Shown here piece by piece: positions 3,001 through 34,110 of a stretch of 64,000 nt of DNA (position 1 is the stretch's first letter; every line of letters starts with the position of its first letter). The notes below the pieces were generated by a model. The model ran no database searches, had not been told where the DNA came from, and saw only the letters and a list, made by a program, of their open reading frames with translations. Source of the stretch: Octopus vulgaris (lineage: Eukaryota); assembly GCA_951406725.2 (NCBI GenBank), contig OX597820.1, forward strand, positions 59,582,001-59,646,000. Reading direction: 5' to 3'. A program made the translations under genes and the position numbers.

Positions 3001-3446
3001 TGGCCTGGCCCGGCCCTGGCCCTGGCCTGGCCTGGCCTGGCCTGGCCTGGCCTGGCCCTGGCCCCTGGCCCTGGCCTGGCCTGGCCTGGCCCCCTGGCCT
3101 GGCCTGGCCCTGGCCTGGCCCTGGCCCTGGCCCAGGCCCCTGGCCCTGGCCTGGCCCTGGCCCTGGCCTGGCCCTGGCCTGGCCCTGGCCCTGGCCCTGG
3201 CCTGGCCTGGCCCTGGCCCTGGCCCTGGCCCTGGCCCCTGGCCCGGCCCAGCCTGGCCAGCCCTGGCCCTGGCCCTGGCCCTGGCCTGGCCCTGGCCCTG
3301 GCCCTGGCCCAGGCCCTGCCTGCCCCCAGGCCCTGGCCTGGCCAGCCCCCCCCCCCCTGGCCCTGGCCCTGGCCCTGGCCCGGCCCGGCCCTGGCCCTGG
3401 CCCTGGCCTGGCCCGCCCAGCCCCCCTGGCCCTCCCCTAACCCTGG
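1..3446 (+). repeat. (CCTGG)n/(CCCTGG)n terminal array; probably basecall-corrupted (CCCTAA)n telomere
   Basis: Near-perfect CCTGG pentamer from base 1, with increasing CCCTGG hexamers and C-run noise toward ~3430, merging into CCCTAA. CCCTAA-to-CCCTGG is a documented nanopore telomere miscall. Confidence 0.9.
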
Positions 3447-3549
3447 CCCCAACCTCCCTACCCCCCCCTAACCCTACCCTAACCCTAACCCTAACCCCTA
3501 ACCCTAACCCTAACCCTAACCCTAACCCTAACCCAACCCTTAACCCTAA
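3435..3549 (+). repeat. Telomeric repeat (CCCTAA)n = (TTAGGG)n on minus strand
   Basis: ccctaaccctaaccctaa... clean from ~3466 to 3549; C-rich strand on + as expected for a left chromosome end. Confidence 0.95.
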
Positions 3550-4215
3550 TTTAATAATATGCGAGGGGAGTAACTCTAGAAAGGGAGATAACTAACAAAA
3601 AATCTTCCAGGGTTACCGCCCTTACATCTAATTAAATTACTATTAAGTATTATTAAATTGAAATCTTCAAGGGAAATAACTCTAGAAAGGGAGATAACTA
3701 AAAAAAAATCTCCCAGTTACCTCCCTTACATCTAATTCAATTACTATTATTTGTTATTAAATTGGTGTATTCACGGGGAGTAACTCTAGGAAGGGAGAGA
3801 ATTACTCCCCTTGAAGACCTCAATTTAATAACACAATACTAATTTAATTAGATGTAAGGGAGATAACTCTGGAAGATTTTTTTTAGTTATCTCCCTTTCT
3901 AGAGTTACTCCCCTTGAACATTTCAATTTAATAATACGTAATATTAATTTAATTAGATGTAAGGGAACTAAAAATCTTCCAGAGTTACCTCCCTTATATC
4001 TAATTAATTTACTATTATGTATTATTAAATTGAAATGTTCAAGGTGAGTAACTCTAGAAAGGGAGATAACTAAAAGATCTTCCAGAGTTACCTCCCTTAC
4101 ATCTAATTAAATTACTATTACGTATTATTAAATTGAAATATTCAAGGGGAGTAAATCTCCTAGAGATATATAAAAAAATCTTCAAAAGTTACCTCCCTTA
4201 CATTTAATTAAATAA
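3550..4215. repeat. Telomere-adjacent ~106-bp AT-rich tandem repeat with an internal inverted block
   Basis: Unit ggggagtaactctagaaagggagataactaaaa..atcttccagagttacctcccttacatctaattaaattactatta..tattattaaattgaaat; copies at ~3800-3967 are reverse-complemented. Confidence 0.8.
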
Positions 4216-4401
4216 CGACTATTATCAAAATGTGTCATGGAAGCTAATTAACTCTACAATATAATGTTCAGACGTAACACTTTTACTCCTTTCCTTGTTT
4301 AGTCATTTCAATGTGCCCATGCTGGAGCACAGCCTTTTCTAGAGCAAATCGACACTAGGACTTTTATCTACGTCAGTCTAGTATTTATTCTGTTGGTCTT
4401 C

Positions 4402-4687
4402 AGACCATAATATCCTACTCTCAAAATTGGCAAATGTTGGAATCCGTGGAAAAGTTCTACACTGGATCAAGTATTTCCTGGCGAATACAACACAACATGT
4501 TGTAGTTGATGGAGTCCACTCAAGCCAAGCAAAAGTCAACAGCGGTGTCCCTCAGGGGTCTGTCTTGGGTCCGCTACTCTTCATAATCTACATAAACGAC
4601 CTTTCCAGTGTCGTACATTACTGCAAAGTGAACATATTTGCTGATGACACTAAGCTCCAGCAAATCGTCAATGAAGAAGCAGACCGA
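4402..4687 (+). mobile_element. CR1-group LINE RT fragment (family A)
   Basis: ORF 4427 has SGVPQGSVLGPLLFIIYINDL and FADDTK; near-identical to 52584-52867. Confidence 0.9.
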
Positions 4688-5419
4688 TCCAGGTATGTAG
4701 ATACGGGGTGCTTAACACTCGCAAATCTGGAGTCACTAAAGGTGCAATTGAACTTCTTTTCATTTAGAACTTAGGGATCTGCAAATGTCGGTATCTTAGA
4801 GATGCTTAAAGTGTTTGTTCTAGCTGTAATTGTCGCATACAAACAGACGCTCACACACGTATACACAGAAATAAAAACATTCACACAAACACAAACACTG
4901 AAATGAAAACAGTTACATACCTACACATGCACACACACAAATAGAAATGAAAATAGTCACACACAAACATACGCACCCACACAGAAATGAAAACGCAGTT
5001 ACACATTCACACAAAACCCTAACTAGCATAAACATACAATTTATTCAGAATGTAGAGGGGCATTGAGTGCTTTGCACTCGCAGTTAGAATATCAGCTCCC
5101 TCCACGCCAGAATTAGAATTTCTGTCATCCACTTGTGAAATTAATACATTGACGACACATGGGAAAAATATGAGCAACATCTGAAGCCACTAAAGGTGCA
5201 ATAAATTGAACTTATTTGTATTAGTAGTTAGTGATATATGAATATCGACGTAGGAATGGCTGTTGTAAGTAGTTTGCTTACGAACCACATGGTTTCGGGT
5301 TCATTCCCACTGCCTGTCATCTTCTGCAATTGTTACTATTGTAGCCCAGGGCCTAGCTAATCCTTGTGATGGGATTTAGTGGAAGGAAATTGATAGAATC
5401 TCGTCGTATATACGTTTAA

Positions 5420-5457
<38 letters not shown>

Positions 5458-5665
5458 GTGCGTGCGTGTGTTTGTGTGTGTCTGTGTATGTTCGCACTCG
5501 AAGGGCACACGAGAATGCACGCACGTACTATCACACATACAGATGCAAGTTTTCTTAATAAAACGGAATGAACTCCCATTCCATCCCTTACAGTTTCTTT
5601 TTTGTTTTAGATACTACATATACGTGTGTTGGTATATTCACGTATATCTGTATGTATATATTTAT

Positions 5666-5696
<31 letters not shown>

Positions 5697-6340
5697 AATA
5701 TATATATATAAATATATATACGACGCTATGTACGACATATAAATACACAAACACATACATGTGTGTGTGTGTGTGTGTGTGTGTATATGAAGGTGCAATA
5801 AATTGACTTATTTTGATTTAGTATTTAGTGATCACCAATGTGGGTATCTTACAAATGGTCAAAGTGTTTGTTGTAGTTGTAAGTGACGTACGCACAAATA
5901 GAAAAACTCAGTCGCTCACACACTCGCGCACACAGAAATAAAAACACTCTCACACACAAACACTGAAATGAAAATACCCACACTCACATAAATAAAAACA
6001 GTCCCACACACAAGGAGCCCCAATAGGTCTATCAAAAAAGTTTCTAGTATTTTTCCTAACCCTAACCCATAATTTATGATAATTGAAATTCTTACAATAA
6101 ATAAATAACTACTAAATAAGTATATCGAACATTACGTCCCCGTAACTTATCGGTTCTGCAAAAGAGACCTATACATTAAGTAATAGGCATACAAAGAATA
6201 ATTTCTGGGCTTGATTTGCTTCACTAAAGGCGGTGCTCCACCATGGTCGCAGTGAAATAACGGAAAGAGTCTAAGAGCGACAAAGCGTATATTACGATAA
6301 CTACATACTTAAGGGAGATAACTACTTAAGGGAGGTAATT
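4688..6340. repeat. Subtelomeric mosaic spacer (decayed SINE pieces, CA/TA microsatellites, shared duplicated modules)
   Basis: Sub-blocks match 17370-18065, 24270-24860, 26480-27510, 58190-58990 and 63355-63580. Confidence 0.75.
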
Positions 6341-9300
6341 ACGTGGCCCTGAATTACATGCACCTGAATGTCCTGCCCCTTAATTACATGGCCCTCAATT
6401 ACATGGCCCTGAATTACATGACCCTGTATTACCTGCCCTTGAATTACCTGTACCTGAGTTACATGTCCCTGAATTACATGCACCTGAATTACCTGCCCGT
6501 CAATTACCTTCCCCTGAATTACATATCCCTGAATTACATGTCCCTGAATGACATTCCTCTAAATTACCAACCTCTGCATTACCTACCCCTGGATTACATT
6601 ACCCCTGAATTACCCGCCCCTGAATTACATGCCCGAATTACATGCCCCTGAATTTCATGCCCCTGAATTAACTGCCCCTCAATTACCTGCTCCTTAATTA
6701 CATGGCCCTGAATTACATGGCCCTGAATTTCCTGCCCCTTAATTACATGCCCCTGTATTACCTGCCCTTGAATTACCTGCCCCTGAGTTACATGTCCCTG
6801 AATTACATGCACCTGAATTACCTGCCCCTCAATTACCTTTCCCTGAATTACATGCCCCTGAATTACATGTCCCGGAATTATCTGCCAGTGAATGACATTC
6901 ACCTGACATTCATCAATTACCTGCCCCTGAATTACCCCTGAATTACCTTCCCCTAAATTACATGCATCTGAATTACCTGCCCCTGAATTACAAACACCTG
7001 AATTAGATGCCCCTCAATTACCTGCCCCTCAATTACATGCACATGAATGACCTGACCCTGAATGATATGCCCCTCAATTATCTATCCCTAAATTACCTGC
7101 CCCGGAATTACCTGCCCGTGAATGTCATGCCCCTGGATTAACTGCCCCTGAATTACATGCCACTGAATAACATACACCAGAATAAGATACACCTGAATTA
7201 CCTGCCCCAAAATTACATACCCCTGAATTACCTGCCCCTAAATTACATGCATCTGAATTACCTGCCCCTGAATTACATGGCCCTGAATTATCTGCCCCTC
7301 AATTACATGCCTCTTAATTACATGCACCTGTATGACCTGACCCCGAATTATCTATCCCTAAATTACCATGAATTACCTGCCCGTGAATGACATGCCCCTG
7401 AATTACCTGCACCTAGATAACCTGCCCCAGAATTACATGCACCTGGATTACCTAACCCAGAATTACATGCCCCTGAATTACCTGCCCATGAATGACATTC
7501 CTCTGAATTACCTGTCCCTGAATTACCTTCCCCTGAATTACATTCCTCTGAATTACCCACCCATGAATTACATGCCCCTGAATTACATGCCCCTGAATTA
7601 ACTACCCCTCAATTACATGCCCCTGGATTACCTAACCCAGAATTACATGCACCTGGATTACCTAACCCAGAATTACATGCACCTGAATTACATGCCCCTT
7701 AATTACATGCCCCTGAATTACCTGCACCTGAATGACATGCCCCTGAATTACGTGCCCCTGAATTACCTCCCCCTGAATTACGATATCCTGAATTTCATGC
7801 CCATGAATTACCTGCCCCTGAATTACCTGCCCCTGAATGACATGCCCCTGAATGACCTGCCCCTTAATTACATACCCCTGAATTACCTGTCCCTGAATAA
7901 CCTATACCTGAATAACCTGACACTCAATAATCTGCCCCTGAAGTTCCTGCCCCTAAATTACCTTCCCCTGAATTACATGCCCCTGAATTACATGCCCCTG
8001 AATTACATGCACCTGAATTACATGCGCCTGAATTACATACACCTGAATTACCTGCCCCTGAGTCACATGTCCCTGAATAACCTGCATCTGAATTACCTGC
8101 TCCTGAATTACATACACCTGAATTACATGCCTTTGAATTACCTGCCCCTAAATTATGGGCCCCTGAATTACCTGTCCCTGAATGACATGCCCCTGAATTA
8201 CACTCTGAATTACCTGCCCGTGAATTACCTGCCCCTCAATCACCTGCCCATGAATGACATCCCTATAAATTACCTTTCCCTGAATTACCCCTGAATTACC
8301 TGCCCCTAGATTACCTTCCCCTGAATTACACTCTAAATTACCTGCCCCTGAATGACCTGCCAATGAATGACATTCCTCTAAATCACCTGCACCTGAACTA
8401 CCTGCCCCTGGATTACCTTCGCCTCAATTACCCGCCCATGAATTACATGCCCCTGAATTACCTTTCCCCTGAATTACATGCCCCTGAACTACCTGCCCCT
8501 TAATTACATGTCCTTGAATTATTTGCCAATATTCCTCTAAATTACCTGCCCCTAAATTAATTGCCCCTAAATTACCTGCCCATGAATTACATGCCCCTGA
8601 ATTACCTGTCCCTGAATTACATACACCTGAATTACCTGACCCTGAATTACATGCCCCTGAATTATCTACCCCTGAGTCCCTGAATAACCTGCACCTGAAT
8701 TACCTGCACCTGAATTACCTGCCCCTGAATTACATACACCTGAATTACATGCCCGTGAATTACGTGCCCGTGAATTTCCTGCCCCAAAATTACATGCGCC
8801 TGAATTACGTGCCCCTGAATGACATGCCCCTCAATTACCTGCCCATGAATTACATACACCTGAATTACATGCCCCTGAATTACCTGCCCCTATATTACAT
8901 GCCACTCAATTACCTAGCCATGAATTACCTGCCCCTGAATAACATACACCTGAATTAACTTCCCCTCAATTACCTGCCCCTGAATTATATACCCCTGAAT
9001 TACCTGCCCCTGAATTACATGCACCTGAATTACCTGCCCCTGAATTACAAACACCTGAAATACATGGCCCTGAATTACCTTCCTCTTATTTACATGCACC
9101 TGAATTACCTGCCTCTGAATTATCTATCCCTAAATTACCGGCCCCTGAATTACCTATCCGTGAATGACATGCCTCTGAATTACCTGGACCTAGATTACCT
9201 GCCCCTGAATTACATGCCCCTGAATCACCTTTCATCTGAATTACATGCCACGCGATTACCTGCCCCTAAATTACCTGCCCATGAATGACATTCCTCTAAA

Positions 9301-12300
9301 TTACCTGTCCCTGAATTACCCCTGAATTACCTGCCCCTGGATTACCTTCCCCTGAAATATATTGCTCTGAATTACCCACCCACGAATTACATGCCCCTGA
9401 ATTACATACACCTGAATTACATGCCCCTCAATTACCTGCACCTCAATTACATGCCCCTGAATTACATGCACCTGAATTACCTGCACCTGAATTACATGCC
9501 CCTGAAATACATTGCTCTGAATTACCCACCAACGAATTACATGCCCTTGAATTACATGCCCCTGAATTACCTGCCCTGAATTACATACATCTGAATTACA
9601 TGCCCCTCAATTACCTGCACCTCAATTCCATGCCCCTGAATTACATGCCCCTTAATTACATGCCCCTGAATTACCTGCACCTGAATTACCTGCCCCTCAA
9701 TTACCTGCGTCTGAATTACCTTGCTCTGAATGACATGCCCCTTAATTACTTAACCCTGAAGTACCTGCCCCTGAATTACCTGCCACTAAATTACATGCAT
9801 CTGAATTACCTGCCCCTCAATTACATGTCTCTTAATTACATGCACCTGAATGACCTGCCCCTGAATGACATGTCTCTGAATTGTCTATCCCTGAATTACC
9901 TGCCCGTGAATGACATACCCCTGAAATACCTGCACCTAGATTACCTGCCCCTGAATTACATTTCATCTGAATTACATGCCCCTGAATTACCTGCCCATGA
10001 ATGACATTCCTATAAATTACCTGTCCCTAAATTACCCCTGAATTACATTCCTCTGAATTACCTGCCCCTGAATTACCTGCCAATGAATGACATTCCTCTA
10101 AATCACCTGCTCCTGAATTACCTGCCCCTGGATTACCTTCCCCTCAATTACCCGCCCATGAATTACATGCCCGAATTACATGCCCCTGAATTACCTGCCC
10201 CTGAATTGAAGTGCACCTGAATTAAATGCCCCTGAATTACATACACCTGAATTATCAGCTCCTGAATTACATGCCCCTGAATTACATGCCCCTGAGTCCC
10301 TGAATTACATGCCCGTGAATTACCTGCCCCTAAATTACATGCCCCTCAATTACCTACCCATGAATTACATACACCTGAATTACATGCCCGTGAATTACCT
10401 GCCCTGAATTACCTGCCCCTGAATTACATGCCCCTGAATTACATGCCCCTCAATTACCTGCCCATGAATTACATGCCCCTGAACTACCTGCCCCTTAATT
10501 ACATGTCCCTGAATTATCTGCCAATGAATGACATACCTCTAAATTACCTGCCCCTGAATTACAAACACCTGAATTACCTGCCCCTCAATTACATGCCTCT
10601 TAATTACATGCACATGAATGATCTGACACTGAATGATATGCCCCTGAATTATCTATCCCTAAATTACCTGCCCGGAATTACCTGCCAGTGAATGACATAC
10701 CCCTGGATTAACTGCCCCTGAATAACCTGCCCCTGAATAACATACACCTGAATTACCTGCCCCTGAATTACATGCCCCTGAATTACCTGCCCCTGAATTA
10801 CATGCCCCTGAATTACCTGCCCCTCAATTACATGCACCTAAATGACCTGCCCCTGAATTATCTATCCCTAAATTACCAGCCCGTGAATGACATACCCCTG
10901 AATTACCTGCACCTAGATTACCTGCCCCTGAATTACATGCCCCCTGATTACCTAACCCAGAATTACAAGCCCCTGAATTACCTGCCCATGAATGACATTC
11001 CTCTAAATTACCTGTCCCTGAATTACCCCTGAATTACATGCACCTGAATTACCTGCCCCTAAATTACATGACTCTTAATTACATGCACATGAATGATGTG
11101 CCCCTGAATTACCTATCCCTAAATTACCCACCCGTGAATGACATGCCCCTGAATTACATACACCTGAATTACCTGCCCCTGGATTACCTAGCCCTGAATT
11201 ACCTGCCCCTGAATTACCTTCGCTGAATGACATGCCCCTGAATGACATGCCCCTGAATTGCATACCCCTGAATTACCTGCCCATGAATTACATGCACCTG
11301 AATTACATGCCCCTGAATTACATGCAACTGATTTACATGCCCCTGAATTACACTCCCCTGAATTATCTACCCCTGAGTCCCTGAATAACCTGCACCTGAA
11401 TTACCTGCCCCTCAATTACCTGCCCATGAATTACCTGCCCATGAATTAAATGCCCCTGAAGTACCTGCCCCTAAATTACATGCCCCTGAATGACATGCCT
11501 CTGAATTATCTATCCCTAAATTACCAGCCCGTGAATGACATGCCCCTGAATTACCTTTCATCTGAATTACATGCCCCTGGATTACCTGCCCCTAAATTAC
11601 CTGCAGATGAATGACATTCCTCTAAGGTACCTGTCTCTGAATTACCCCTGAATGACATGCCCCTGAATTACCTTCCCCTGAATTACATGCCCCTGAATTA
11701 CATTCCTCTGAATTACCCACCTACGAATTACATGCCCCTGAATTACCTACCACTGAATTACATACACCTGAATTACAGACACCTGAATTACATGCCCCTC
11801 AATTACATGCCGCTGAATTACCTAACCCTGAATTACCTGCCCCTGAATTACCTTCCCTGAATGACATGCCCCTGAATTACATACCCATGAATTACATGCA
11901 CCTGAATTAAATGCCCCTGAATTAAATGCCCCTGAATTACATGCCCCTAAATTACCTGCCCCAGAATTACATGCCCCTCAAGTATCTACCCCTGAGTCCC
12001 TGAATAACCTGCACGTGAATTACCTGCCCCTGAATTACATACACCTGATTTACATGCCCTGAATTACCTGCCCCTGAATTACCTGCCCGTGAATTACCTG
12101 CCCCAAAATTACATGCCCCTGAATTACCTGCCCCTGAATTACATGCCCCTCAATTAACTGCCCGTGAACTACCTGGCCCTAAATTACATGCCCCTGAATT
12201 ACCTGCCCATGAATTAAATGCCCCTAAAATACCTTCCCCTGAAGTACCTGCCCCTAAATTACATGCATTTGAATTACGTGCCCCTGAATTACCTGCCTCT

Positions 12301-15300
12301 TAATTACATGCACCTGAATGACCTGCCCCTGAATTTCATGCCTCTGAATTATCTATCCCTAAATTACCAGCCCCTGAATTACCTGCCCCTGAATTACATG
12401 CCCCTGAATTACATGCACCTGAATTACCTGCCCCTGAATTACATGCCCCTGGATTACCTGCCCATGAATGATATTCCTCTAAATTACCTGTCCCTGAATA
12501 ACGCTTGAATTACCTGCGCCTGGATTACCTTCCCCCGAATTACATTCCTCTGAATTACCCACCCACGAATTACATGCCCCTGAATTACATACACCTGAAT
12601 TACATGCCCCTCAATTACCTGCACCTCAATTACATGCCCCTGAATTACATGCCCCTGAATTACAAGACCCTGAATTACCTGTCCATGAATGACATTCCTA
12701 TAAATTACCTCCCCCTGGATTACCTTCCCCTAAATTACATTGCTCTGAATTACCTGCCCCTGAATTACCTGCCAATGAATGACATTACTCTAAATCACCT
12801 GCACCTGGATTACCTTCCCCTCAATTACCCGCACATGAATTACATGCCCGATTTACCTGCCCCTGAATGACATGCCCCTGAATTACATGCCCCTGAATTA
12901 CATACCCCTGAATTACCTTCCCATAAATTACATACACCTGAATTACATGCCCGTGAATTACCTGCCCCTAAATTACATGCCCCTGAATGACCTGCCCCTG
13001 AATGACCTGCCCCTGAATAACCTATACCTGAATAACCTGCCCCTGAATAACATACACCTGAATTACATACACCTGAATTACATACACCTGAATTACATGC
13101 CCCTCAATTACATGCCCCTGAATTACATGCAACTGATTTACATGCCCCTGAATTACATACACCTGAATTACATGCCCCTGAAATATCTACCCCTGGGTCC
13201 CTGAATAACCTGCACCTGAATTACATACACCTGAATTACCTGCCCCTAAATTACATGCCCCTGAATTACCTGCCCCTGAATGACATGCCCCTGAATGACA
13301 TGCCCCTCAATTACCTGCCCATGAATTACCTGCCCATGAATTAAATGGCCATGAATTACCTGCCCCTGAACTACCTGCCCCTAAATTACATGACCCTGAA
13401 TGACCTGCCCCTGAATGACATGCCTCTGAATTATCTATCCCTAAGTTACCAGCCCCTGAATTACCTGCCCGTGAATGACATGCCCCTAAATTACCTGCAG
13501 ATGAATGACATTCCTCTGAGTTACCTGTCCCTGAATTACCCCTGAATTACCTGCCCCTGGATTACCTTCCCCCGAATTACATTCCTCTGAATTACCCACC
13601 CACGAATTACATGCCCCTGAATTACATACACCTGGATTACAAGCCCCTCAATTACCTGCACCTCAATTACATGACCCTGAATTACAAGACCCTGAATTAC
13701 CTGCCCATGAATGACATTCCTATAAATTACCTCCCCCTGGATTACCTTCCCCTGAATTACATTGCTCTGTATTACCAGCCCCTGAATTACCTGCCAATGA
13801 ATGACATTACTCTAAATCACCTGCACCTGGATTACCTTCCCCTCAATTACCCGCAATTGAATTACATGCCCGAATTACCTGCCCCTGAATGACATTCCCC
13901 TGAATTACATACCCCTGAATTAGCTGCCCGTGAATTACCTGCCCCTAAATTACATGCCCCTGAATGACATGCCCCTCAATTACCTGCCCATGAATTACAT
14001 GCCCCTGAACTACCTGCCCCTTAATTACATGCCCCTGGATTACCTGCCCCTGAATTACCTTCCCCTGAATTACATGCCCCTGGATTACCTGCCCCTGAAT
14101 TACCTTCTCCTGAATAACATACATCTGAATTACCTGCCTCTGAATTACCTGCCCTGAATTACATACCCCTGAATTACCTGCCCCTAAATACCATGCATCT
14201 GAATTACCCGCCCCTGAATTGCAAACACCTGAATTACATGGCCCTGAATTACCTGCCTCTTAATTACATGCACCTGAATGACCTGCCCCTGAATGACATG
14301 CCTCTGAATTATCTATCCCTAAATTACCAGCCCCTGAATTACCTGCCCGTGAATGACATGCCCCTGAAATACCTGCCCCTGAATTACCTTTCCTCTGAAT
14401 TACATACCCCTGATTTACCTGCCCCTGAATTACATGCCCATGAATGACATTCCTCTAAATCACCTGCACCTGAACTACCTGCCTCTGGTTTACCTGCCCC
14501 TTGATTACCTGCCCCTGAATTACATGCCGCTCAATTACCTGCACCTCAATTACATGCCCCTTAATTACATGCCCCTGAATTACCTGCACCTGAATTACCT
14601 GCACCTGAATTACATAAACCTGAATTACATGCCCCTCAATTACCTGCCACTGAATTACCTTGCTCTAAATTACATGCCCCTTAATTATTTAACCCTGGAT
14701 TACCTGCCCCTGAATAACCTGACCCTGAATTACCTTCCCCTGAATTACGTGCCCCTGAATTACATACCCCCTAAGTACCTGCCCCTAAATTACATGCATC
14801 TGAATTGCCTGCCCCTCAATTACAAACACCTGAATTACCTGCCTCTTAATTACATGCACCTGAATGACCTGCCCCTGAATGACATGCCTCTGAATTATTT
14901 ATCCCTAAATTACCTGCCCGTGATTGACATTCCCCTGAATTACCTTTCATCTGAATTACATGCCCCTGAATTACATACCCCTGAATTACATGCCCCTGAA
15001 TTACCTGCCCATGAATGACATTCCTATAAATTACATGTCCCTTAATTACCTTCCTCTGAATACCCGCCCCTGAATTACCTGCCAATGAATGACATTACTC
15101 TAAATCACCTGCACCTGGATTACCTTCCCCTCAATTACCCGCCCATGAATTACATGCCCGAATTACATGCCCCTGAATTACCAGTCCCTGAATTACCTTC
15201 CCTGAATGACATGTCCCTGAATTACATACCCCTGAATTACCTGCCCATGAATTACATGCCCCTGAATTACCAGCCCCTGAATTACCTTCCCTGAATGACA

Positions 15301-16030
15301 TGTCCCTGAATTACATACCCCTGAATTACCTGCCCATGAATTACATGCACCTGAATTACCTGCCGCTGAACTATCTGCCCCTCAATTACCTGCCCAAGAA
15401 TTACATACACCTGAATTACATGCCCGTGAATTACCTGCCCCTCAATTACGTGCCCCTGAATTACATACCCCCTAAGTACCTGCCCCTAAATTACATGCAT
15501 CTGAATTGCCTGCCCCTGAATTACAAACACCTGAATTACATGCCCCTGAATTACATACACCTGAATTATATGCCCCTCAATTACCTGCACCTCAATTACA
15601 TGCCCCTGAATTACATGCACCTGAATTACATTCCCCTGAATTACCTGCACCTGGATTACATAAACCTGAATTACCTGCCCCTGAATTACATGCCCCTCAA
15701 TTAACTGCCTCTGAATTACCTTGCTCTGAATTACATGCCCCTTAATTACTTAACCCTGGATTACCTGCCCCTGAATAACCTACACCTGAATAACCTGACC
15801 CTGAATTACATACCCCTGAATTACATGCCCCTCAATTACCTGCCCGTGAATTACATGGCCCTGAATTACATGTCCCTGAATTTCCTGCCCCTTAATTACA
15901 TGCCCCTGAATTACTTGTCCCTGAAATACATGCACCTGGATTACCTGCCCCTGAATTTCCTGCGCCTGGATTACCTGCCTTGAATTACCTTCCCCTGAAT
16001 TACCTGCCCCTGAATTACATGTCCCTGAAT
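6340..16030 (+). repeat. 15-bp satellite, consensus CCCCTGAATTAC(A/C)TG, ~9.7 kb
   Basis: Continuous tandem array of the 15-mer (roughly 640 monomers by length); source of the spurious (MPLNY/LPLNY)n ORFs. Confidence 0.97.
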
Positions 16031-16039
16031 GTATGAATA

Positions 16040-16412
16040 TCTATGTATGGACGCATGATGTGTGAACGAGGCTTGTTTGTATGGACGCATGATGTGTGAA
16101 CGAGGCTTGTTTGTATGGACGCAAGATATGTGAACGAGGCATATTTGTATGGACGCATGATGTGTGAACGAGGCTTGTTTGTATGAACGCATGATGTGTG
16201 AACGAGGCTTGGTTGTTTGGACGCATGATGTGTGAACGAGGCTTGTTTGAATGGACGCATTATGTGTGAACCAGGTGTGTATGAGTGGACGCATGATGTG
16301 TGAAAGAGGCTTGTTTGTATGGACGCATGATGTGTGAACGAGGCATGTTTGTATGGACGCATGATGTGTGAACGAGGCATGTTTGTATGGACGCATGATG
16401 GGTGAACGAGGC
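16040..16412 (+). repeat. 34-bp CpG-containing satellite block 1 (ATGGACGCATGATGTGTGAACGAGGCTTGTTTGT)
   Basis: ~11 tandem copies with 34-bp period (16081 to 16115). Confidence 0.95.
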
Positions 16413-16501
16413 AGCACTTATTTTTTCTAAGCCTAGTATTTATTCTAACTTATTCTTTTCTGCCGAGCCGCTGAAATACAGGGAGGAAAACACACCAGAA
16501 A

Positions 16502-16805
16502 AATCTACTATAGCCCCGAGCCGACCAAAGCCTTGTGATTGGATTTGGTGGAAGGAAACTGGAAAACTCCAGTCATATATATGTTTATATGTGTGCGTGT
16601 GTGTCTTTGTTCCCAAACATTGCTACACAACGGATGCTAGTCTGTTTACGTCCCCATAACTTAGAGGTTCAGCGAAATAAACTGATAGAATAAGCACTAG
16701 GCCGACAATGAATAAGTCCTGGGGTCGATATGCTCGACTAAAGGTCGTGCTCCAACATGGCCACAGTCAAATGACTGAAACAAGTAAATGAGAGTAAAAG
16801 AGTTA
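16502..16805 (+). mobile_element. Octopus OK/OR-type SINE, 5'-truncated
   Basis: ctactatagcc..ccgaccaaagccttgtg..ggatttgg..ggaaactg, central CA/GT tract, 3' tail gtgctccaacatggccacagtcaaatgactgaaacaagtaaa. Confidence 0.8.
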
Positions 16806-17147
16806 AATAACGAGAAAAGTCCATGACCTGTTAACTAGGGAGATAGCAGAAAATATCTCCTAGAGTTACTTCCCTAACGTCATATAATACGTTTCATGTT
16901 GTAATATCTGTAAGAAAGTAATAATGACATAATCAAGTTTCTTTTTTGTTTTATATAGTATATATGCGTATGTGGGTATATACACGTGTATCTGTAAGTA
17001 TATATATATATATATATATATATAAATACTGGAGCGCCGCCTTTAGTCGATCACATCGTCCGCAGCACTTCTTTGTAAGCCTAGTATTTTATTCTCTTTT
17101 GCCGAACCGCTAAAATACAGGGAGTAAAACAGCTACAGTCGTTCGAA

Positions 17148-17375
17148 GGTAATGACCAAACTGTCTACTTTTATCCACCAGTTCCAACACGATTTAACAA
17201 AAAAGGAGACAAATTGCTTGACTAGATTTCACTGCAAAGCCAGTAACATCTATGAACTTCCCAAAATCTACAAAAGTTAAGCCATAAACAAAACCTGTAA
17301 CAAGTTAACTTCTATAGTTATAAATATTCCACACCCGAGAGATATCCGAATGAGGCCAATTATGGCCAATCCAGG
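17148..17375 (+). mobile_element. Penelope-like element RT N-terminal fragment (pseudogenised)
   Basis: Translates ..KASNIYELPKIYKS*..PHPRDIRMRPIMANP, matching the PLE motif YGLPKIHK..RPI; paralog at 63137. Confidence 0.65.
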
Positions 17376-18363
17376 TATGTAGATACGGGAGGCATTGGGT
17401 GCTTAACACTCGCAAATCTGAAGTCGCTAAAGGTGCAATAAATTGAACTTCTTTTCATTTAGAACTTAGGGATCTGCAAATGTGGGTATCTTGGAGATGC
17501 TTAAAGTGTCTGCTGTAGCTGTAATCGTCGCACAAACAAACGAATAAAAACAGTCGCTCACACACACGTACACACAAAAATAAAAACATTCACGCAAACA
17601 CAGACATTGAAATGAAAATAGCAACACACACACACAAAAAGTCCCACGCACACAAACACTGAAAAAAAAATTCTCACAAAAACACTCACATACGCACAAA
17701 AAATAAAAATACAGATACATATTCACACACTCAAACACGCGGACAAACACAGAAATGAAAACAGTTACATACCTACACATGCACAAACACAGACACACAC
17801 AAATACAAATGGAAAATACGGTAACACATCCAAACTCTAACACACTAACATACGCACAAACACACACAGAAATGAAAACGCAGTAACTTATCGGTTCTGC
17901 AAAAGAGACCTATACATTAAGTAATAGGCTTACAAATAATAATTCCTGTGGTTGATTTGCTTCACTAAAGGCGGTGCTCCACCATGGTCACAGTGAATTA
18001 ACTGAAAGAGTCTAAGAGCGACAAAGTGTATATTACGATAACTACATACTTAAGGGAGATAACTACACAGTATCTTCTAACAGTTACTTCCCTTGAATAT
18101 TATATTTTAACAATAATAAAATTATATTTTAGGAAATTAACTCTCGGAAGGGAGATAACTAGATAACATCTTCCAGAGTTACTTTCCGTAAATGTAATTT
18201 AATTACTTTCGTTAAATTATAATATGCGAGGGAAGTAACTCTCAATTATATTATTCAGATATGACACACTTTTACGATTTTTTGGAGTTTAACTGCTCTC
18301 TCTAGTGAGTCGGATGTCCCATTATGGCCATATATATATATATATATATATATATAGATATAT

Positions 18364-18427
<64 letters not shown>

Positions 18428-18433
18428 CTCCTA

Positions 18434-18468
<35 letters not shown>

Positions 18469-18661
18469 TAAACAAACACTGAAAAAAACTACTCAGACAC
18501 ACACACTCACATACGCACAAACACAAACACACAAATGAAAATACAGATACATATTCACACTCAAACATGCGGTCAAACAGAAATTAGAACAGTTACATAC
18601 GTACACATGCACAAACACACAGACACACACAAATAGAAATGAAAAATACAGTTACACACTC

Positions 18662-18794
18662 ACTGCCCCTGAATTACATGCCCCTGAAGTACCTGCTCCT
18701 CAATTACATGCCCCTGAATTACCTGCCCCTAAATTACCGTCCCATGAATTACGTGCCCCTGAATTACCTGTCCCTGAATTAAAAGCCCCTGAAT
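18662..18794 (+). repeat. 15-bp satellite, short block
   Basis: ~9 copies of ccctgaattac(a/c)tgc, directly upstream of the 34-bp block as at 16030. Confidence 0.9.
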
Positions 18795-20069
18795 GTATGG
18801 ACGCATGTGTGAACGAGGCTTGTGTGTATAAACGCATGATGTGTGAACGAAGCTTGTTTGTATGGACGAATGATGTGTGAACGAGGCTTGTTTGTATGGA
18901 CGAATGTGTGAACGAGGCTTGTTTTTATGGACGCATGATGTGTGAACGAGGCTTGTTTGTATTGACGCATGATGTGTGAACGAGGCTTGTTTGTATAGAC
19001 GCATGACGGGTGAACGAGGCTTGTTTGTATGGACGCATTACGGGTGAACGAGGATTGTTTGTATGGACGCATGACGGGTGAACAAGGATTGTTTGTATGG
19101 ACGCATGACGGGTGAACGAGGCTTGTTTGTATAGACGCATGTGTGAACGAGGCTTGTTTGTATAGACGCATGACGGGTGAACGAGGCTTGTTTGTATAGA
19201 CGCATGACGGGTGAACGAGGCTTGTTTGTATAGACGCATGATGTGTGAACGAGGCTTGTTTGTATGGAAGCATGACGTGTAAACGAGGCTTGTTTGTATG
19301 GACGCATGACGTGTGAACGAGGGCTTGTTTGAATGGACGCATGACGGGTGAACGAGGCTTGTTTGTATGGACGCATGACGGGTGAACGATGCTTCTTTGT
19401 ATGGACGCATGACGGGTGAACGAGGCTTGTTTGTATGGACGCATGACGGGTGAACGAGGCTTGTTTGTATGGACGCATGATGTGTTAACGAGGCTTGTTT
19501 GTATGGACGCATGTGTGAACGAGGCTCGTTTGTATAGACGCATGACGTGTGAACGAGGCTTGTTTGTATGGACGCATGATGTGTGAACGAGGCTTGTTTG
19601 TATGGACGCATGACGGGTGAACGAGACTTGTTTGTATGGACGCATGACGGGTGAACGAGGATTGTTTGTATGGACGCATGACGGGTGAACGAGGCTTGTT
19701 TGTATGGACGCATGACGGGTGAACGAGTCTTGTTTGTATGGACGCATGACGAGTGAACGAGGCTTGTTTGTATGGACGCATGACGGGTGAACGAGGCTTG
19801 TTTGTATGGACGCATGACGGGTGAACGAGGCTTGTTTGTATGGACGCATGACGGGTGAACGAGGCTTGTTTGTATGGACGCATGATGTGTGAACGAGGCG
19901 TGTATGTATGGACGCATGATGTGTGAACGAGGCTTGTTTGTATGGACGCATGATGGGTAACCGAGGCTTGTTTGTATGGACGCATGATGTGTGAACGAGG
20001 CTTGTTTGTATGGACGCATGATGTGTGAACGAGGCTTGTGTCCATGGACGCATGATGTTTGAACGAGGC
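18795..20069 (+). repeat. 34-bp satellite block 2 (~37 copies)
   Basis: Tandem 34-mer with GATGTGTG/GACGGGTG variants and occasional 31-bp monomers. Confidence 0.95.
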
Positions 20070-20126
20070 TAACCCCAACCCCAATCCCGACCCTGAAACT
20101 AACCCTAACCCAAACCCAACCCCAAT
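20070..20126 (+). repeat. Degenerate interstitial telomere-like tract
   Basis: taaccccaaccccaatcccgaccctgaaactaaccctaacccaaacccaaccccaat: 6-bp periodic AACCCY variants in the same orientation as the terminal telomere. Confidence 0.7.
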
Positions 20127-20225
20127 CGTAATGTAATTTCATGTAAGGGAAGTAACTGTGGAAAATCTTGTACCTATTTCCCTTTCTAGAGTCACTTCCC
20201 TAGAATATATAATTTAATACATAAT

Positions 20226-20560
20226 AGGCGAAGCAGTGGTAAGTAGCTTGCTAACCAACCACATAGTTCCGGATTCAGTCCAATTGCGTGGCATCTTGGG
20301 CAAGTGTCTTCTGCTATGGCACCGGGCCGACCAATGCCTTGTTAGTGGATTTGGTAGACGGAAACTGAAGGAAGCCTGTCGTATGTATATGTATATGTGT
20401 GTGTGTTTGTCCCCCTAGCATTGCTTGACAACCGATGCTGGTGTATTTAGGTCCCCGTCACTTAGCGATTCGACAAAAAGAGACCGATAGAATAAGTACT
20501 AAAGGTGGTGCTCCAGCGTGGCCGCAGTCAAATGACTGAAACAAGTATAAGAGTAAAAGT
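20226..20560 (+). mobile_element. Octopus OK/OR-type tRNA-derived SINE
   Basis: tRNA-like head gtggtaagtagcttgctaaccaaccacatagttccggattcagtcc through to tail gcagtcaaatgactgaaacaagta. Confidence 0.85.
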
Positions 20561-21010
20561 AATTTAATTAGATATAAGGGAACTCGGGAAGATTTTAGAG
20601 TTATCTTCCTTCGTAGAGTTACTTACCTTCACGTTATAAGTTAATAATATAGAAGGGGAGTAACTCTAGAAAGGGAGATAACTAAAAAAATCTTTCAGAG
20701 TCACCTCCCTTACATTTAATTAAATAACTATTATGTATTATTAAATTGTAAATTTCAATGGGGGTAACTCTACAAAGGGGGATAACTTTAAAAATCTTCA
20801 AAAGTTACCTCCCTTACATTTAAATACATGACTATTATCAAAATGTATTATGGAAGCTAATTAACTCTACAATATAATGTTCAGATGTACCGCATACACT
20901 TTTACTCTTTTCCTTGTTTAGTCATTTCACTGTGCCACTGCTAGAGCACAGCCTTTTCTAGAGCAAATCGACACTAGGACTTTTATCTACGTCAGTCTAG
21001 TATTTATTCT
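20560..21010. repeat. Internal paralog of the telomere-adjacent sequence (~3950-4401)
   Basis: ~106-bp repeat units followed by gactattatcaaaatgt..ggaagctaattaactctacaatataatgttcag..gacactaggacttttatctacgtcagtctag, as at 4217-4401. Confidence 0.85.
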
Positions 21011-21169
21011 GTTAGTCTTCTTTTCCCGAACGAATAAGTTAATGGAGTGTAAAAAACACCGGCATTGGTTGTCAAGCGGTTTTGGGGACACCGAAACATA
21101 CACACATATACATATATATAAATATCTATATGTATATACATGTTTCTCTATATATATATATATATATAT

Positions 21170-22830
21170 TGCAGAAACAATACTGCTGTCTTTAGTGTTC
21201 CCACTGATATTGACGTAAGAGAAGCGAACGAAGTTGACTCCAAACACAAAATTGCAGACATAACCTTCACTCCCACTGACATCGTAGCAGCAATAAATGA
21301 GGTCAAATACTACTCTGCTGTAGGCCCTGATAGGATTCCCCGTTAGTCTCCTGAAGGAATGTAAACACCAACTTGCAGTCCCACTGACCAACCTCTGGAG
21401 AAATTCGTTAGATGCAGGTTATATACCAAAACAGTTTCTATCCCAGTCAGTCATCCCGGTTTTCAAACAGGGAAACAGATCCCTCGCACTCAACTATCGC
21501 CCAATCTCACTCACCTCCCACATCATCAAAGTGTTTGAAAGAGTGTTAAGATCAAGGATGGCTGACTTCCTGGAGACCCACAAACTCCTAAATGCAAAAC
21601 AGCATGGCTTTCGCTGTGGCAGGGACTGTCTAACACAGCTCTTACACCAAATTGAAGTTCTACACTGGATCAAGTATTTCCGGGCGAATACAACACAACA
21701 TGTTGTAGTTGATGGAGTCCACTCAAGCCCAGCAAAAGTCACCACCAGTGGTGACCCCCAGGGGACTGTCTTGGGTCCGCTACTCTTCATAATCTACATA
21801 AACGACCTTTCCAGTGTCGTACATTACTGCAAAGTGAAAATATTTGCTGATGACACCAAGCTCCAGTAAATCGTCAATGAAGAAGCAGACCGAACTCAAC
21901 TCCAGTCTGATCTATATGCTGTGAGTCAATGGGCAAACAGAAACAAAATACAACTAAACGAGGGAAAATTTGAGCTGATGCATTTTGGAAGAAACTCCTC
22001 ACTAAAACAGCCATACTCTCTTCCTTCAGGGGAACCGCTCACAGCCTCTAACAATATCAGAGAACTGGGTGTAATTGTTGATGACCATCACAGTTGGAGT
22101 GCACACATCAACAAGAAGGTCGATATAGCTCGTAGGATGAGTTCCTGGATCTTAAGAACTTTCCGGTCCAGAGAACAAGGTGTCATCATACCACTTTTTT
22201 CCTCCTTTGTACGGCCACACCTTGAATACTGCTGCCCACTGTGGTCTCCTCAAACAAGACTAAACATCTCCAGAATTGAGTCACCCCAGAGGGCACTCAC
22301 TAAACGAATTGAAGGCATGGCTGCTCTCGATTATTGGGATTGCCTTAAAGCCTTGAAACTTTACTCCCTCCAGCGTGAGCGGTACATCATTTGTACGATG
22401 TGGAAAATATACCGCCAACTATGCCCAAACGACCTAAACATTAGCTTCAAGGTTCATCCAAGACTTGGACCACGGGCTATACGTCCCCTGCCCAATTCAA
22501 GATCACAACATACATGTACACTGCAACATAATTTCTTTTCCTCAACAGGCCCTGCCCTATTTAACATTGTCCCGAGAGAGATCAAAGAGGAAAAGGATCC
22601 CATCAACTTTAAACAGAGTCTGGATAGATTCCTTCAAAGAATACCAGATAAGCCACCCATAATTGGATACAAGAACTCACTACTTGAACAAAACTGGATA
22701 CAACTCACCCAACAAGAACTCACTACTTGAACAAAACTTGACTTAAACAGGATTCGAATAATCCTATCAGGTGGTGCTATTAAGTTAGACATGTCCTGGA
22801 CCAATCTTTGGTCGAAACATATCTAAGTTT
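21170..22830 (+). mobile_element. CR1-group LINE family A, 5'-truncated pseudogenised copy
   Basis: [41 protein letters not shown]; contains stops and frameshifts; 3' end flanked by (TA)n. Confidence 0.93.
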
Positions 22831-22850
22831 ATATATATCTGATATATCTT

Positions 22851-22886
<36 letters not shown>

Positions 22887-23014
22887 AATCTATCTTCTTC
22901 GAGCACATCGTCAGCAGCACTTATTCTTTCTAAGCCTAGTATTTATTCTAACTTATTCTTTTCTGCCGAGCCGCTGAAATACAGGGCGAAAAACACACCA
23001 GCATCGTTTGAAAA

Positions 23015-23310
23015 ATCTACTATAGCCCCGAGCCGACCAAAGCCTTGTGATTGGATTTGGTGGAAGGAAACTGGAAAACTCCAGTCATATATATGTTTAT
23101 GTGTGCGTGTGTGTCTTTGTTCCCAAACATTGCTACACAACGGATATTAGTCTGTTTACGTCCCCATAACTTAGAGGTTCAGCGAAAGAGACTGATAGAA
23201 TAAGCACTAGGCCTACAATGAATAAGTCCTGGGGTCGGTATGCTCGACTAAAGGTCGTGCTCCAACATGGCCACAGTCAAATGACTGAAACAAATGAGAG
23301 TAAAAGAGTA
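23015..23310 (+). mobile_element. Octopus OK/OR-type SINE (duplicate of the 16502 copy)
   Basis: Near-identical to 16500-16805, including flanks (16412-16930 vs 22914-23430). Confidence 0.8.
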
Positions 23311-24479
23311 AATAACGAGAAAAGTCCATGTTCACTAGGGAGATAGCAGAAAATATCTCCTAGAGTTACTTCCCTAACGTCATATAATACGTTTCATGTT
23401 GTAATATCTGTAATAAAGTAATAATGACACTCGAAGGGCACACGAGAATGCATTCACGTACTATCACACATGTAGATGCAAGTTTTCTTAATAAAACGGA
23501 AAGAACTCACATTCCATCCCTTAGCTTCTTTTTTGTTTTAGACACTACATATACGTGCGTGGGTATATACACGTATATCTGTATGTGTATGTCTGGGTAA
23601 AACAGACTTTCGCGGTTGGGTCACAGCCGATGCGACAACCTTGGGTATGTGTGGACTGTGCTCACACACGAACAAATACCCACACTTCCGCACTCATGCA
23701 CATAGATACATGCAAAGCTATTTTATGTTTTCAATAAGTTGTGCCATTCGAGTGCGAACAAACGCACACACACACACGCACACATTTAAACATATATACG
23801 ATGGTATTTTATCAGTTTCCTTCCACTAAATCCAATCACAAGGATTAGGTCGGCCTTGGGGTACAGTAGTGTTTGTTGTAGCTGTAATTGTCGCACAAAC
23901 AAACGAATAAAAACACAGTCGCTCACACACACGTACACACAAAAATAAAAACATTCACACAAACACAGACACTTAAATGAAAATAGCAACACACACACAT
24001 ATAAAAAGTCCCACGCACACAAACACTGAAAAAAAAATTCTCACAAAAACACTCACATACACACAAAGACAAACACACAAATAAAAATACAGATACATAT
24101 TCACACACTCAAACACGCGGACAAACACAGAAATGAAAACAGTTACATACCTACACATGCACAAACGCAGACACACACAAATACAAATGGAAAATACGGT
24201 AACACATCCAAACTCACACACACTAACATACGCACAAACACACACACAAACATAAGCACCCACACACAGAAATGAAAACGCAGTTACACACTCACACATA
24301 AAACCCTAACCGTAACTAGCACAAACATACAATTTATTCAGAATGTAGAGGGGCATTGGGTGCTTTGCACTCGCAGTTAGAATATCAACTCCCTCCACGC
24401 CTATATTAGAATTTCTGTCATCCACTTGTGAAATTAATACATTAACGACACATGGGAAAAATATGAGCAACATCTGAAG

Positions 24480-33090
<8,611 letters not shown>

Positions 33091-33234
33091 TATTACATTA
33101 CATTCAATTAGCCATACATTATTAGTTTCATTATCCAAATATTTTCCTTCACGTTTCATGTATACCGAGGACCTTCTTTTTCATTGCTTCAATCAGTGTA
33201 CATAAAGTGTTTGTGAAAGCAAAGAGTTTTCACA

Positions 33235-34110
33235 CTTATTTACTAATGAGCTTCTTCTTATAGCTAAATCACTACCAGAACTAGAGAACAAATTGTGCGT
33301 ACGGAAGCAAGGTCTAGAATTGAAAGGTCACAGAATTAACCTACCCAACCCTAACACAAAGTCTTAGTAAGTAGGAAAACAGATAAATCGTAAAGCCCTT
33401 CAGGTACATGGCCATCCTCAATATGAAGGAAACAGGTAGGTAGATGTACTCTGTATAACACATAATAGGTGTAGCAATATCAGAGGAAGGTAAACTGGGA
33501 AAATATTTTTTGCATGTGGAAGGTGCACATGTACAGTAAACACTAAAAGTGTACAGAAAATGGGCTTCATCAAATACCAGAGGAGTACGATAAAGATTGT
33601 TGAGCAACAAAGTCAGTAGCAGAGGTGGATGAACCAAGAGTGAGGCTGCAAGAATAAAAATAGGCTGAGCAAATTCAGAGAGCTCCTTCCTCTGTTTAGT
33701 AACTAAGGGTCTCTCCTTCAGAGTGAAAGTCAAGATTTATTATACCTGTGCAGACAACTATGCTACATGGCAGAAGAAGTAGACATAAGAAGGCATTGGA
33801 CAAGGTGGTAATGCATGATCTTTGACTGTTGGAACTTATAAAGGCAATGACTAATGACTGACACCTTTCATGATATGCCGTGCCTTAGAAGACAATATAT
33901 TGTAATTAATTTCCCATCAATTAATTTTTTCACAACCCCTGCCCACAACACTCATGGAGTGCTTGATGTTAAGAAGGGCATCCAGCCATAGAAACAATGA
34001 CAAATCAAGACTGGAGTCTGCTGCAGACCCTCAGCTTACAGCCCTGATGAAACTGTCCAACCCAAGCCAGCATAGAAAATGGACATTAAATGATGATGAT
34101 GATGATGAGG
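33235..34110 (+). mobile_element. Old, degraded RTE-clade LINE 3' portion
   Basis: Aligns to the reverse complement of 48508-50050 (..IAKSLPELE.., ..KFRELLPL..TKGLS.RVK.., 3' end ggacattaaa(tga)n). Confidence 0.8.

What the first reader, a model, noticed from the sequence alone, without database searches (positions are those of the whole stretch)
3549..21010. Layered subterminal satellite cap built distal to an old chromosome end
Seen, from proximal to distal: ~106-bp repeat plus flank (20560-21010), degenerate telomere tract (20070-20126), 34-mer array, 15-mer array, mosaic spacer (16413-18661), 34-mer array, long 15-mer array, mosaic spacer, the same ~106-bp repeat/flank (3550-4401), present telomere. 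The [spacer-15mer-34mer] order occurs twice with the same ccctgaatgtatg junction (~16024, ~18787). Inference: an ancestral telomere was buried by appended satellite/spacer cassettes through recombination or break-induced replication between ends, then re-capped using the same telomere-adjacent sequence. This is architecturally analogous to great-ape subterminal satellite caps with spacers. I know of no such description in cephalopods.
Basis: partly seen in the sequence, partly recalled or inferred. Interest (0 to 1): 0.75.

Follow-up and report, generated by a model that had tools for sequence, protein, structure and literature searches.

The report
Satellite cap burying an old telomere
A leftover scrap of telomere with satellite DNA stacked outside it recurs at twelve places in this likely-octopus genome and starts at the same junction as the telomeres of uncapped chromosome ends, so these ends were likely lengthened by recombination copying one end onto another, a process already known in humans and worms.

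Summary
The layered order is confirmed. The 57-bp tract (20070-20126) ends at the same junction as telomeres on uncapped ends, two of them true scaffold ends. The 34-mer|remnant join recurs at 12 loci, and the three repeats were found only in such end-type blocks. Best reading: a terminal segment of another end type (satellites, spacers, its own telomere-adjacent element) was likely joined once to an eroded end, partly duplicated, then spread by ectopic recombination. Corrections: (1) bases 1-3413 are (CCTGG)n, a known nanopore miscall of CCCTAA; (2) the window lies mid-scaffold (C7, 59.6 of 128.6 Mb), head-to-head with another telomere tract, probably a mis-join, unresolved; (3) the outer element is a ~5% diverged paralogue, not the buried one reused; (4) the doubled cassette is one junction duplicated. 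It works like human subtelomeric duplicons and C. elegans CB4856 chrVR; it is not an ape StSat cap. No cephalopod description in three searches; the scan had not noted it on other DNA. Bonus: a 350-bp piece of internal DNA inside the same telomere tract is high-depth in two samples and near background in a third (TALT-like lead).

The parts
1..3413 (.). (CCTGG)n/(CCCTGG)n tract; likely nanopore miscall of a CCCTAA telomere array; continues 3.6 kb upstream of the window
   Evidence: TTAAAA, CTT and CCTGG blocks alternate with canonical repeats in other tracts; miscalls documented in PMC9414165 and PMC10769321
3414..3549 (.). Transition zone and canonical CCCTAA repeats (3466-3549); outer junction type J1
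3550..4401 (+). Outer telomere-adjacent element (TAE): ~104-106-bp hairpin units, a 347-bp fold-back palindrome (3619-3965) and a flank
   Evidence: full-length relatives at 89-93% abut telomere tracts elsewhere
4402..4687 (+). LINE reverse-transcriptase fragment, following a ~705-bp deletion seen only in this copy
   Evidence: Pfam RVT_1 E 1.5e-11; deletion against the C30 copy, junction found in no other fetched locus
4688..6336 (+). Spacer A: mosaic of SINE-like pieces and microsatellites shared with the proximal 23-32 kb region
6337..16030 (+). 15-mer satellite, 652 copies, G-rich on the telomeric G strand, with higher-order structure colinear with arrays at other ends
16031..16412 (+). 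15-mer|34-mer junction and 34-mer array (10.9 copies)
16413..18661 (+). Spacer B: mosaic; its first 517 bp are 94% identical to 22916-23429
18663..18794 (+). Short 15-mer array (8.8 copies); second copy of the same junction, with a short deletion in this locus
18794..20070 (+). 34-mer array (37.9 copies); its proximal end is the join to the old telomere
20070..20126 (.). Buried degenerate telomere remnant ending at junction type J2
   Evidence: same junction next to telomere tracts at the C22 right end, C24 and (variant) the C13 start
20127..21020 (+). Inner TAE, interrupted by a high-copy SINE-like insertion (about 20226-20559) found only in double-cap copies
21166..22832 (+). 5'-truncated LINE (RT; CR1/L2-like by recalled motifs) that follows the TAE at capped and uncapped ends; broken frames
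22916..33089 (+). Proximal mosaic with ~2.2-kb tandem units; the block from 18.8 kb on is repeated 47.7 kb downstream at 93-97%

Best explanation
The 57-bp tract at 20070-20126 sits at the same junction as telomeres on uncapped ends and is likely an old chromosome end that was buried when the terminal segment of another end type was likely copied onto it by recombination and then spread to other ends. Steps: (1) shown: uncapped ends read telomere|J2-TAE|LINE (C13 start, C22 right end, C24). (2) Inferred: such an end eroded to ~60-100 bp of degenerate proximal repeats and was joined once, with a 2-base overlap, to a 34-mer array. The 34-mer carried distal to it the 15-mer array, spacer, LINE piece, a TAE and a telomere (break-induced replication or non-reciprocal terminal translocation); single-cap forms survive at C10 and C15. 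(3) Inferred: in one lineage a SINE entered the inner TAE and the segment holding the 15-mer|34-mer junction was duplicated, giving this window's double cap. (4) Inferred: ectopic recombination primed in the shared TAE and satellites copied the cap to about ten loci recently (inner copies 99.1-99.7% alike), with unequal exchange resizing the arrays. The cap is non-coding; no function beyond being exchangeable end DNA is shown. The CCTGG tract is likely a base-calling artefact and the mid-scaffold position likely a mis-join.
For: Junction identity between the buried tract and uncapped ends. 34-mer|remnant join at 12 loci in the same phase, control 0. 15-mer|34-mer junction 19 hits, two sequence variants, control 0. 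TAE 22-mer: 52 of 52 exact hits in these blocks. 34-mer 40-mer: of 870 hits, the 22 on C1-C27 are all at cap loci. Tree of 35 rows: outer clade 100/98, SINE-bearing inner clade 100/100. Capped inner copies are rejected as one clade (p-AU 4.6e-7; test chosen after seeing the tree), as expected if the cap moved between ends. 15-mer arrays are colinear but differ in length, 4.5-17.6 kb. Independent burials elsewhere: a ~95-kb 34-mer array beyond a 514-bp TTAGGG tract on C28, and a ~22-mer array beyond a remnant at C5:106.12 Mb. Short-read contigs of 4 runs (3 studies) cover the remnant and its flanks.
Against: Only 2 of 10 capped loci on large scaffolds are at scaffold ends. Distal to the 12 joins lie: a tract at or running toward a scaffold end 4, tract plus gap 3, gap before any telomere 2, non-terminal tract without a gap 2 (this window, C15), internal tandem copy 1. 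No short-read contig has 31 letters on both sides of the 34-mer|remnant join (29 and 26 on the satellite side), and two of the four runs may come from the source study. Gene conversion could also explain the non-clade result. The tree does not place the buried copies as sister to any one uncapped end (nearest, C13 start, 96.7%). The direction and pathway of copying are not shown. 114 of 214 15-mer hits and 770 of 870 34-mer hits were not listed.
Confidence: 0.72

Rival explanations
1. The block is real but now truly interstitial: an end-to-end telomere fusion or internalised subtelomere, so the 'present telomere' is itself buried.
For: No N gap at the head-to-head TTAGGG/CCCTAA join 10 kb upstream or in the 100 kb sampled further left. 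C15's tract runs into unique DNA without a gap. C42, C48 and C31 share a head-to-head TAE arrangement with a common 1-kb middle. Long tracts at C17 and C27 are followed by a LINE.
Against: Both tracts are noisiest near the join (perfect-repeat fraction 0.20-0.41), like read tips. C5 shows TTAGGG running into C-strand miscalls and then a gap, a chimeric-read pattern. Telomeres face each other across a gap on C17. The segment to the right is only ~125 kb before a gap.
Confidence: 0.25
2. The satellites were inserted or expanded inside the proximal telomere tract of one end (or the remnant is a repair-derived interstitial repeat), and the outer TAE arose by local duplication.
For: At C10 the outer and inner TAE group together (98/96); C28 has tandem TAE+remnant units.
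Against: In the double-cap class the outer TAE belongs to another clade, 95% identical, with a different telomere junction; the remnant ends at exactly the junction used by uncapped ends.
Confidence: 0.12
3. The order is an assembly artefact (collapsed or chimeric repeats).
For: Telomere tracts contain miscalls; this copy has a private 705-bp deletion; placement is suspect.
Against: Twelve loci with different array lengths and locus-specific variants share the joins; short-read contigs tile the remnant region in 3 studies.
Confidence: 0.06
4. The layers are a head-to-tail array of a telomere-targeted retroelement (HeT-A/TART-like or Penelope terminon).
For: The LINE after each TAE points its 5' end to the telomere; a second LINE with a (TAAC)n tail abuts telomere tracts at 2 loci.
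Against: The TAE-linked LINE also lies at 42.4 and 52 kb of the window and has no telomere repeat at its 3' end; Pfam gives RVT_1 and APE-type endonuclease only; no hammerhead among 64 Rfam matches at E<=1; 0 of 29 other copies of the TAAC-tail LINE are next to CCCTAA.
Confidence: 0.04

Closest known systems
Human subtelomeric duplicons with internal (TTAGGG)n tracts (PMC2323237; passages)
   Same: Telomere-oriented internal tracts at duplicon boundaries; the same subterminal blocks next to terminal and internal tracts; short 11p allele ends where the long allele has an internal tract
   Different: Here the appended block is mostly two minisatellites and transposon debris, 3-29 kb, with no genes
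C. elegans CB4856 chromosome VR new subtelomere (PMC6581047; abstract and passages)
   Same: Short remnant of the old telomere followed by an appended segment and a new telomere; explained by ALT/BIR with telomerase present
   Different: One end and 200 kb of internal genes there; here about 12 loci and satellite arrays
Great-ape pCht/StSat subterminal caps (PMC12758386 abstract and introduction; PMC3371704 passages)
   Same: ~32-34-bp satellite punctuated by spacers just inside the telomere; near-identical caps on non-homologous chromosomes
   Different: Hundreds of kb of one monomer with segmental-duplication spacers; a buried telomere was not mentioned in the passages read; the window's cap is 16.5 kb (the C28 array, ~95 kb, is closer in scale)
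TALT elements (PMC4595603; abstract)
   Same: For the 350-bp insert upstream of the window: internal DNA flanked by telomere repeats, found in more than one telomere array
   Different: TALT spread was seen in telomerase-null survivors; here units are 7-17 kb apart and the telomerase state is unknown
Budding-yeast X and Y' elements (recalled, not read)
   Same: Core end element, internal telomere tract, optional distal element spread by recombination
   Different: Y' encodes a helicase; this cap is non-coding

Membership tests
Buried-telomere subtelomeric duplicon | Internal telomere-like tract oriented toward the end, at a duplication boundary | tested here: met
Buried-telomere subtelomeric duplicon | Same adjacent block next to terminal telomeres on short (uncapped) ends | tested here: met
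   C22 right end and C13 start (scaffold ends), C24 (tract plus gap)
Buried-telomere subtelomeric duplicon | Near-identical copies on non-homologous chromosomes | tested here: met
   inner copies 99.1-99.7%
Buried-telomere subtelomeric duplicon | Physical location at chromosome ends | tested here: inconclusive
   2 of 10 capped loci on large scaffolds are terminal; most others end at gaps; this copy is mid-scaffold
Great-ape StSat/pCht cap | Arrays of hundreds of kb of a single 32-bp monomer | tested here: not met
   two monomers, 15 and 34 bp, 16.5 kb here; largest array seen ~95 kb; the assembly may collapse arrays
Great-ape StSat/pCht cap | Spacers that are duplicated segments between satellite blocks | tested here: met
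   spacer B start 96-99% across loci, though only ~2 kb and made of transposon pieces
Great-ape StSat/pCht cap | Heterochromatic block with hypomethylated spacers | not testable with these tools
   no methylation or cytology data
Telomere-specific retroelement / Penelope terminon | Penelope-type RT, hammerhead pLTR, or family-wide insertion at telomere repeats | tested here: not met
TALT-like template (upstream insert) | Internal donor locus and copies flanked by telomere repeats | tested here: met
   99.35% over 309 bp to C18:67.47 Mb; 3 copies inside telomere tracts on C7 and C17
TALT-like template (upstream insert) | Amplification across many ends | tested here: inconclusive
   contig depth 2900 (X6) and 1062 (X8, same sample) against 425-790 for the long inner-TAE contigs in X6; near background in X13; depth is not a copy number
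TALT-like template (upstream insert) | Telomerase-independent maintenance | not testable with these tools
   no activity data

The most novel reading that the evidence does not exclude
Octopus chromosome ends grow by repeated, recombination-driven capture in the germ line: eroded telomeres are buried under newly seeded satellites (34-mer, 15-mer, ~22-mer), and a 350-bp piece of internal DNA has entered telomere arrays and is spreading between ends as a polymorphic TALT-like template in wild animals that keep TTAGGG telomeres. This would be a natural, ongoing ALT-type system in a mollusc.
Probability: 0.25. Interest if true: 0.8.

Novelty: new member of a known kind. Interest (0 to 1): 0.5.

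Why it matters
It gives a readable series in one genome (uncapped, single cap, double cap) for how subterminal satellite caps start, a stage that is overwritten in apes. It supplies end-specific markers (TAE, 15-mer, 34-mer) for FISH and for correcting scaffolds: many of these telomere-capped blocks lie mid-scaffold, which matters for work on cephalopod karyotype fusions. It also warns that (CCTGG)n in this assembly is not a new telomere motif. The telomere-embedded insert makes germ-line copying between telomeres directly testable.

Tried and rejected
CCTGG as a genuine variant telomere: rejected as likely miscall; not tested with short reads. TAE as a dispersed MITE: rejected, 52 of 52 core hits lie in end-type blocks. 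TAE as a hammerhead or known RNA: only sub-threshold miRNA/snoRNA hairpin matches. Coding satellites: ORFs in the arrays are repeat translations. TAAC-tail LINE as telomere-specific: 0 of 29 others. A megablast comparison of 15-mer arrays returned nothing at my filter and was replaced by unique 45-mers. C7 scaffold ends show no telomere in 5 kb each, which is uninformative. No RNA holder was listed. The sequence left of the upstream TTAGGG tract is a dispersed repeat, so no second allele could be traced. Tree rows: 39 flanks were found; 35 entered (the window's outer copy left out for its deletion, 3 too near a fetched stretch's end); 4 more divergent rows were left out. Supplements of papers were not read.
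Full report
OBSERVATION. Every layer is present at the stated place. Tandem Repeats Finder gives the 15-mer at 6337-16030 (652 copies) and 18663-18794, the 34-mer at 16044-16412 and 18794-20070, and 103-104-bp units at 3556-3798 and 3966-4213. The outer element matches the inner one over 3938-4401 against 20553-21020 at 83.7% and holds a 347-bp fold-back palindrome. The tract at 20070-20126 scores 7 telomere-type motifs against at most 2 in 43,817 windows of the rest of the window. The spacers are mosaics of pieces that recur at 23-32 kb.

WHERE THE WINDOW LIES. It is C7:59,582,001-59,646,000 of a 128.6-Mb scaffold in a 2.8-Gb genome; an octopus is inferred from size, scaffold number and notes of this scan, not named by any tool. 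Upstream, a dispersed repeat is cut abruptly by 8.3 kb of TTAGGG, which meets about 6 kb of CCCTAA head-to-head without a gap; then come a 350-bp insert, 7 kb of CCTGG and the TAE. A gap follows ~125 kb after the window's start. Quality is lowest near the head-to-head join. I put a mis-join at about 70-75% and a real fusion at about 25%; the tools cannot decide.

THE CCTGG TRACT. Tracts elsewhere switch between canonical repeats and TTAAAA, CTT and CCTGG/CCCTGG blocks. PMC9414165 (passages) reports TTAAAA, CTTCTT and CCCTGG as nanopore miscalls; PMC10769321 (passages) lists CCTGG among C-strand error patterns. TTAGGG is the one cephalopod motif cited as experimentally determined (PMC13218726, passages). 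The tract is therefore likely a telomere array; this was not tested with short reads.

GENOME-WIDE DISTRIBUTION. A 22-base core of the ~106-bp unit has 52 exact hits, all in such blocks. The 34-mer probe has 870 hits; the 22 on C1-C27 are at cap loci and most listed others lie in a ~95-kb array on C28; 770 were not listed. The 15-mer probe has 214 hits; the 100 listed fall in 12 loci, all at caps or within ~100 kb of a scaffold end. The 34-mer|remnant join occurs at 12 loci. Distal to them are: a telomere tract at or running toward a scaffold end in 4 (C10, C22, C52, C53; the first 5 kb of C53 not fetched), a tract and gap in 3 (C19, C27, C28), a gap inside the 15-mer in 2 (C20, C30), a tract without gap in 2 (this window, C15), and 1 internal tandem copy. 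The satellites are thus not dispersed, but terminal position rests on contig ends more than on scaffold coordinates.

THE BURIED END. The remnant ends at junction J2. The same junction follows 10-kb-scale terminal tract sequence at the C22 right scaffold end, 325 bp of repeats plus a gap on C24, and (as a variant) the C13 scaffold start, none of which has a satellite cap in the stretches fetched. Live tracts are degenerate in their proximal repeats in the same way. The outer element uses another junction, J1. In a tree of 35 flank+LINE segments the outer copies form a clade (100/98) and the SINE-bearing buried copies another (100/100); identities to the window's inner copy are 99.1-99.7% within that clade, 94.7-95.8% to outer copies and 95.8-96.7% to uncapped ends. 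C10 and C15 carry one 15-mer/34-mer unit and no SINE. The two 15-mer|34-mer junctions are variants of one sequence with 19 hits, so the repeated order is a duplication. All capped inner copies share one join yet are rejected as a clade (p-AU 4.6e-7; test chosen after the tree), which fits transfer of the cap between ends or gene conversion. The 15-mer arrays are colinear across 9 of 11 loci compared, weakly so at C15 and not at C17.

INDEPENDENT DATA. Contigs of 4 short-read runs from 3 studies have depth across 20041-20204, with pieces at 20041-20104 (X1), 20044-20111 and 20113-20264 (X19) and 20113-20262 (X6). None meets the 31-letter bridging rule at the satellite join, and X1/X19 may be the source study.

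MECHANISM. Shown: the anatomy, the shared junctions, the three end classes, near-identity of recent copies. Inferred: erosion, one join with a 2-base overlap to the 34-mer, arrival of the distal segment with its own TAE and telomere by break-induced replication or terminal translocation, SINE insertion, duplication, and spread by ectopic recombination. Separate burials on C28 (514-bp tract under the large 34-mer array in opposite polarity; tandem TAE+remnant units) and C5 (~22-mer array) show the process recurs. Confidence 0.72.

THE INSERT IN THE TELOMERE TRACT. The 350-bp piece at C7:59,578,024-59,578,372 matches C18:67.47 Mb at 99.35% over 309 bp, plus a short leader found nowhere else; it occurs 3 times, always inside telomere tracts, twice on C17 where the array leads to a different subtelomere. 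In X6 and X8 (one sample) contigs identical to the insert, spanning both bases that distinguish it from C18, have depth 2900 and 1062; the long inner-TAE contigs in X6 have 425-790. X1 has summed depth of 2-5e5 over its AT-rich part. X13 has 48-195 in the middle and 0 in both junction bins, but only 76% of that run was read and it differs in several variants. Depth is no copy number, and assembler reuse of one array is not excluded. It resembles TALT (PMC4595603, abstract) and is a lead, not a result.

COMPARISON. The layout matches human subtelomeric duplicons (PMC2323237, passages) and C. elegans CB4856 chrVR (PMC6581047, passages). It works like an ape cap in layout and exchange (PMC12758386, abstract and introduction; PMC3371704, passages) but fails the size and monomer test. 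A telomeric retroelement array is rejected. Searches for an octopus or cephalopod description (listings only) and for germ-line inserts copied between telomere arrays found none; one search listed general subtelomere papers. The library lacks most subscription papers and supplements were not read. Earlier scan notes hold nothing on this structure.

VERDICT. A real, recently spread subtelomeric cap over a buried telomere; a new member of a known kind, apparently undescribed in cephalopods; interest 0.5.

Noticed in passing
L001:6024-6372 (C7:59578024-59578372); C17:54139612 and 54157279; donor C18:67468594-67468902: 350-bp internal fragment (SINE/LINE tail plus AT-rich flank, short private leader) inside telomere arrays; high short-read depth in two samples, near background in a third
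   Followed up: partly
C7:59563573-59571925 (L002, L001): 8.3-kb TTAGGG tract starting abruptly inside a young dispersed repeat, like a healed break, and meeting the window's tract head-to-head without a gap
   Followed up: partly
C28:20831819-20946391 (L067, L141, L068, L142, L040, L064): ~95-kb 34-mer array with interruptions between a 514-bp internal TTAGGG tract and tandem TAE+remnant units, telomere and gap; possible donor array
   Followed up: partly
C27:22585321 (L063) and C17:20147 (L050): Same LINE copy (99% over 2.9 kb) joined by its (TAAC)n tail to the distal side of 8.5-kb and 17-kb telomere tracts; the family is otherwise dispersed (0 of 29)
   Followed up: partly
C42:51600-54400, C48:70700-73600, C31:9.865 Mb: Head-to-head TAEs separated by a short remnant, 1 kb of shared unique DNA, a small new repeat and ~1.2 kb of CCCTAA; possible real fusion relic
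   Followed up: no
C15:59807531-59807924 (L029): Short telomere tract holding an 85-bp LINE piece and running into unique DNA with no gap
   Followed up: no
C5:106118300-106119650 (L080): A ~22-mer satellite between a telomere remnant on a diverged TAE and a longer degenerate tract
   Followed up: no
C7:59706929-59714200 (L091): Degenerate TTAGGG blocks alternating with a ~540-bp repeated insert just after the gap
   Followed up: no
window 4401/4402: ~705-bp deletion private to this copy, at a short inverted repeat; real or assembly error unknown
   Followed up: partly
window 18794-37744 against C7:59648500-59675300: Tandem duplicate of the inner block 47.7 kb downstream at 93-97%
   Followed up: partly
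C17:3138, C52:5468, C28:12014125: Telomere repeats added directly to the 15-mer array or to the spacer without a TAE (at C28 after 400 noisy bases), like truncated and healed caps
   Followed up: no
whole assembly: At least ten telomere tracts end at mid-scaffold gaps, suggesting widespread mis-orientation or misplacement of end contigs
   Followed up: no
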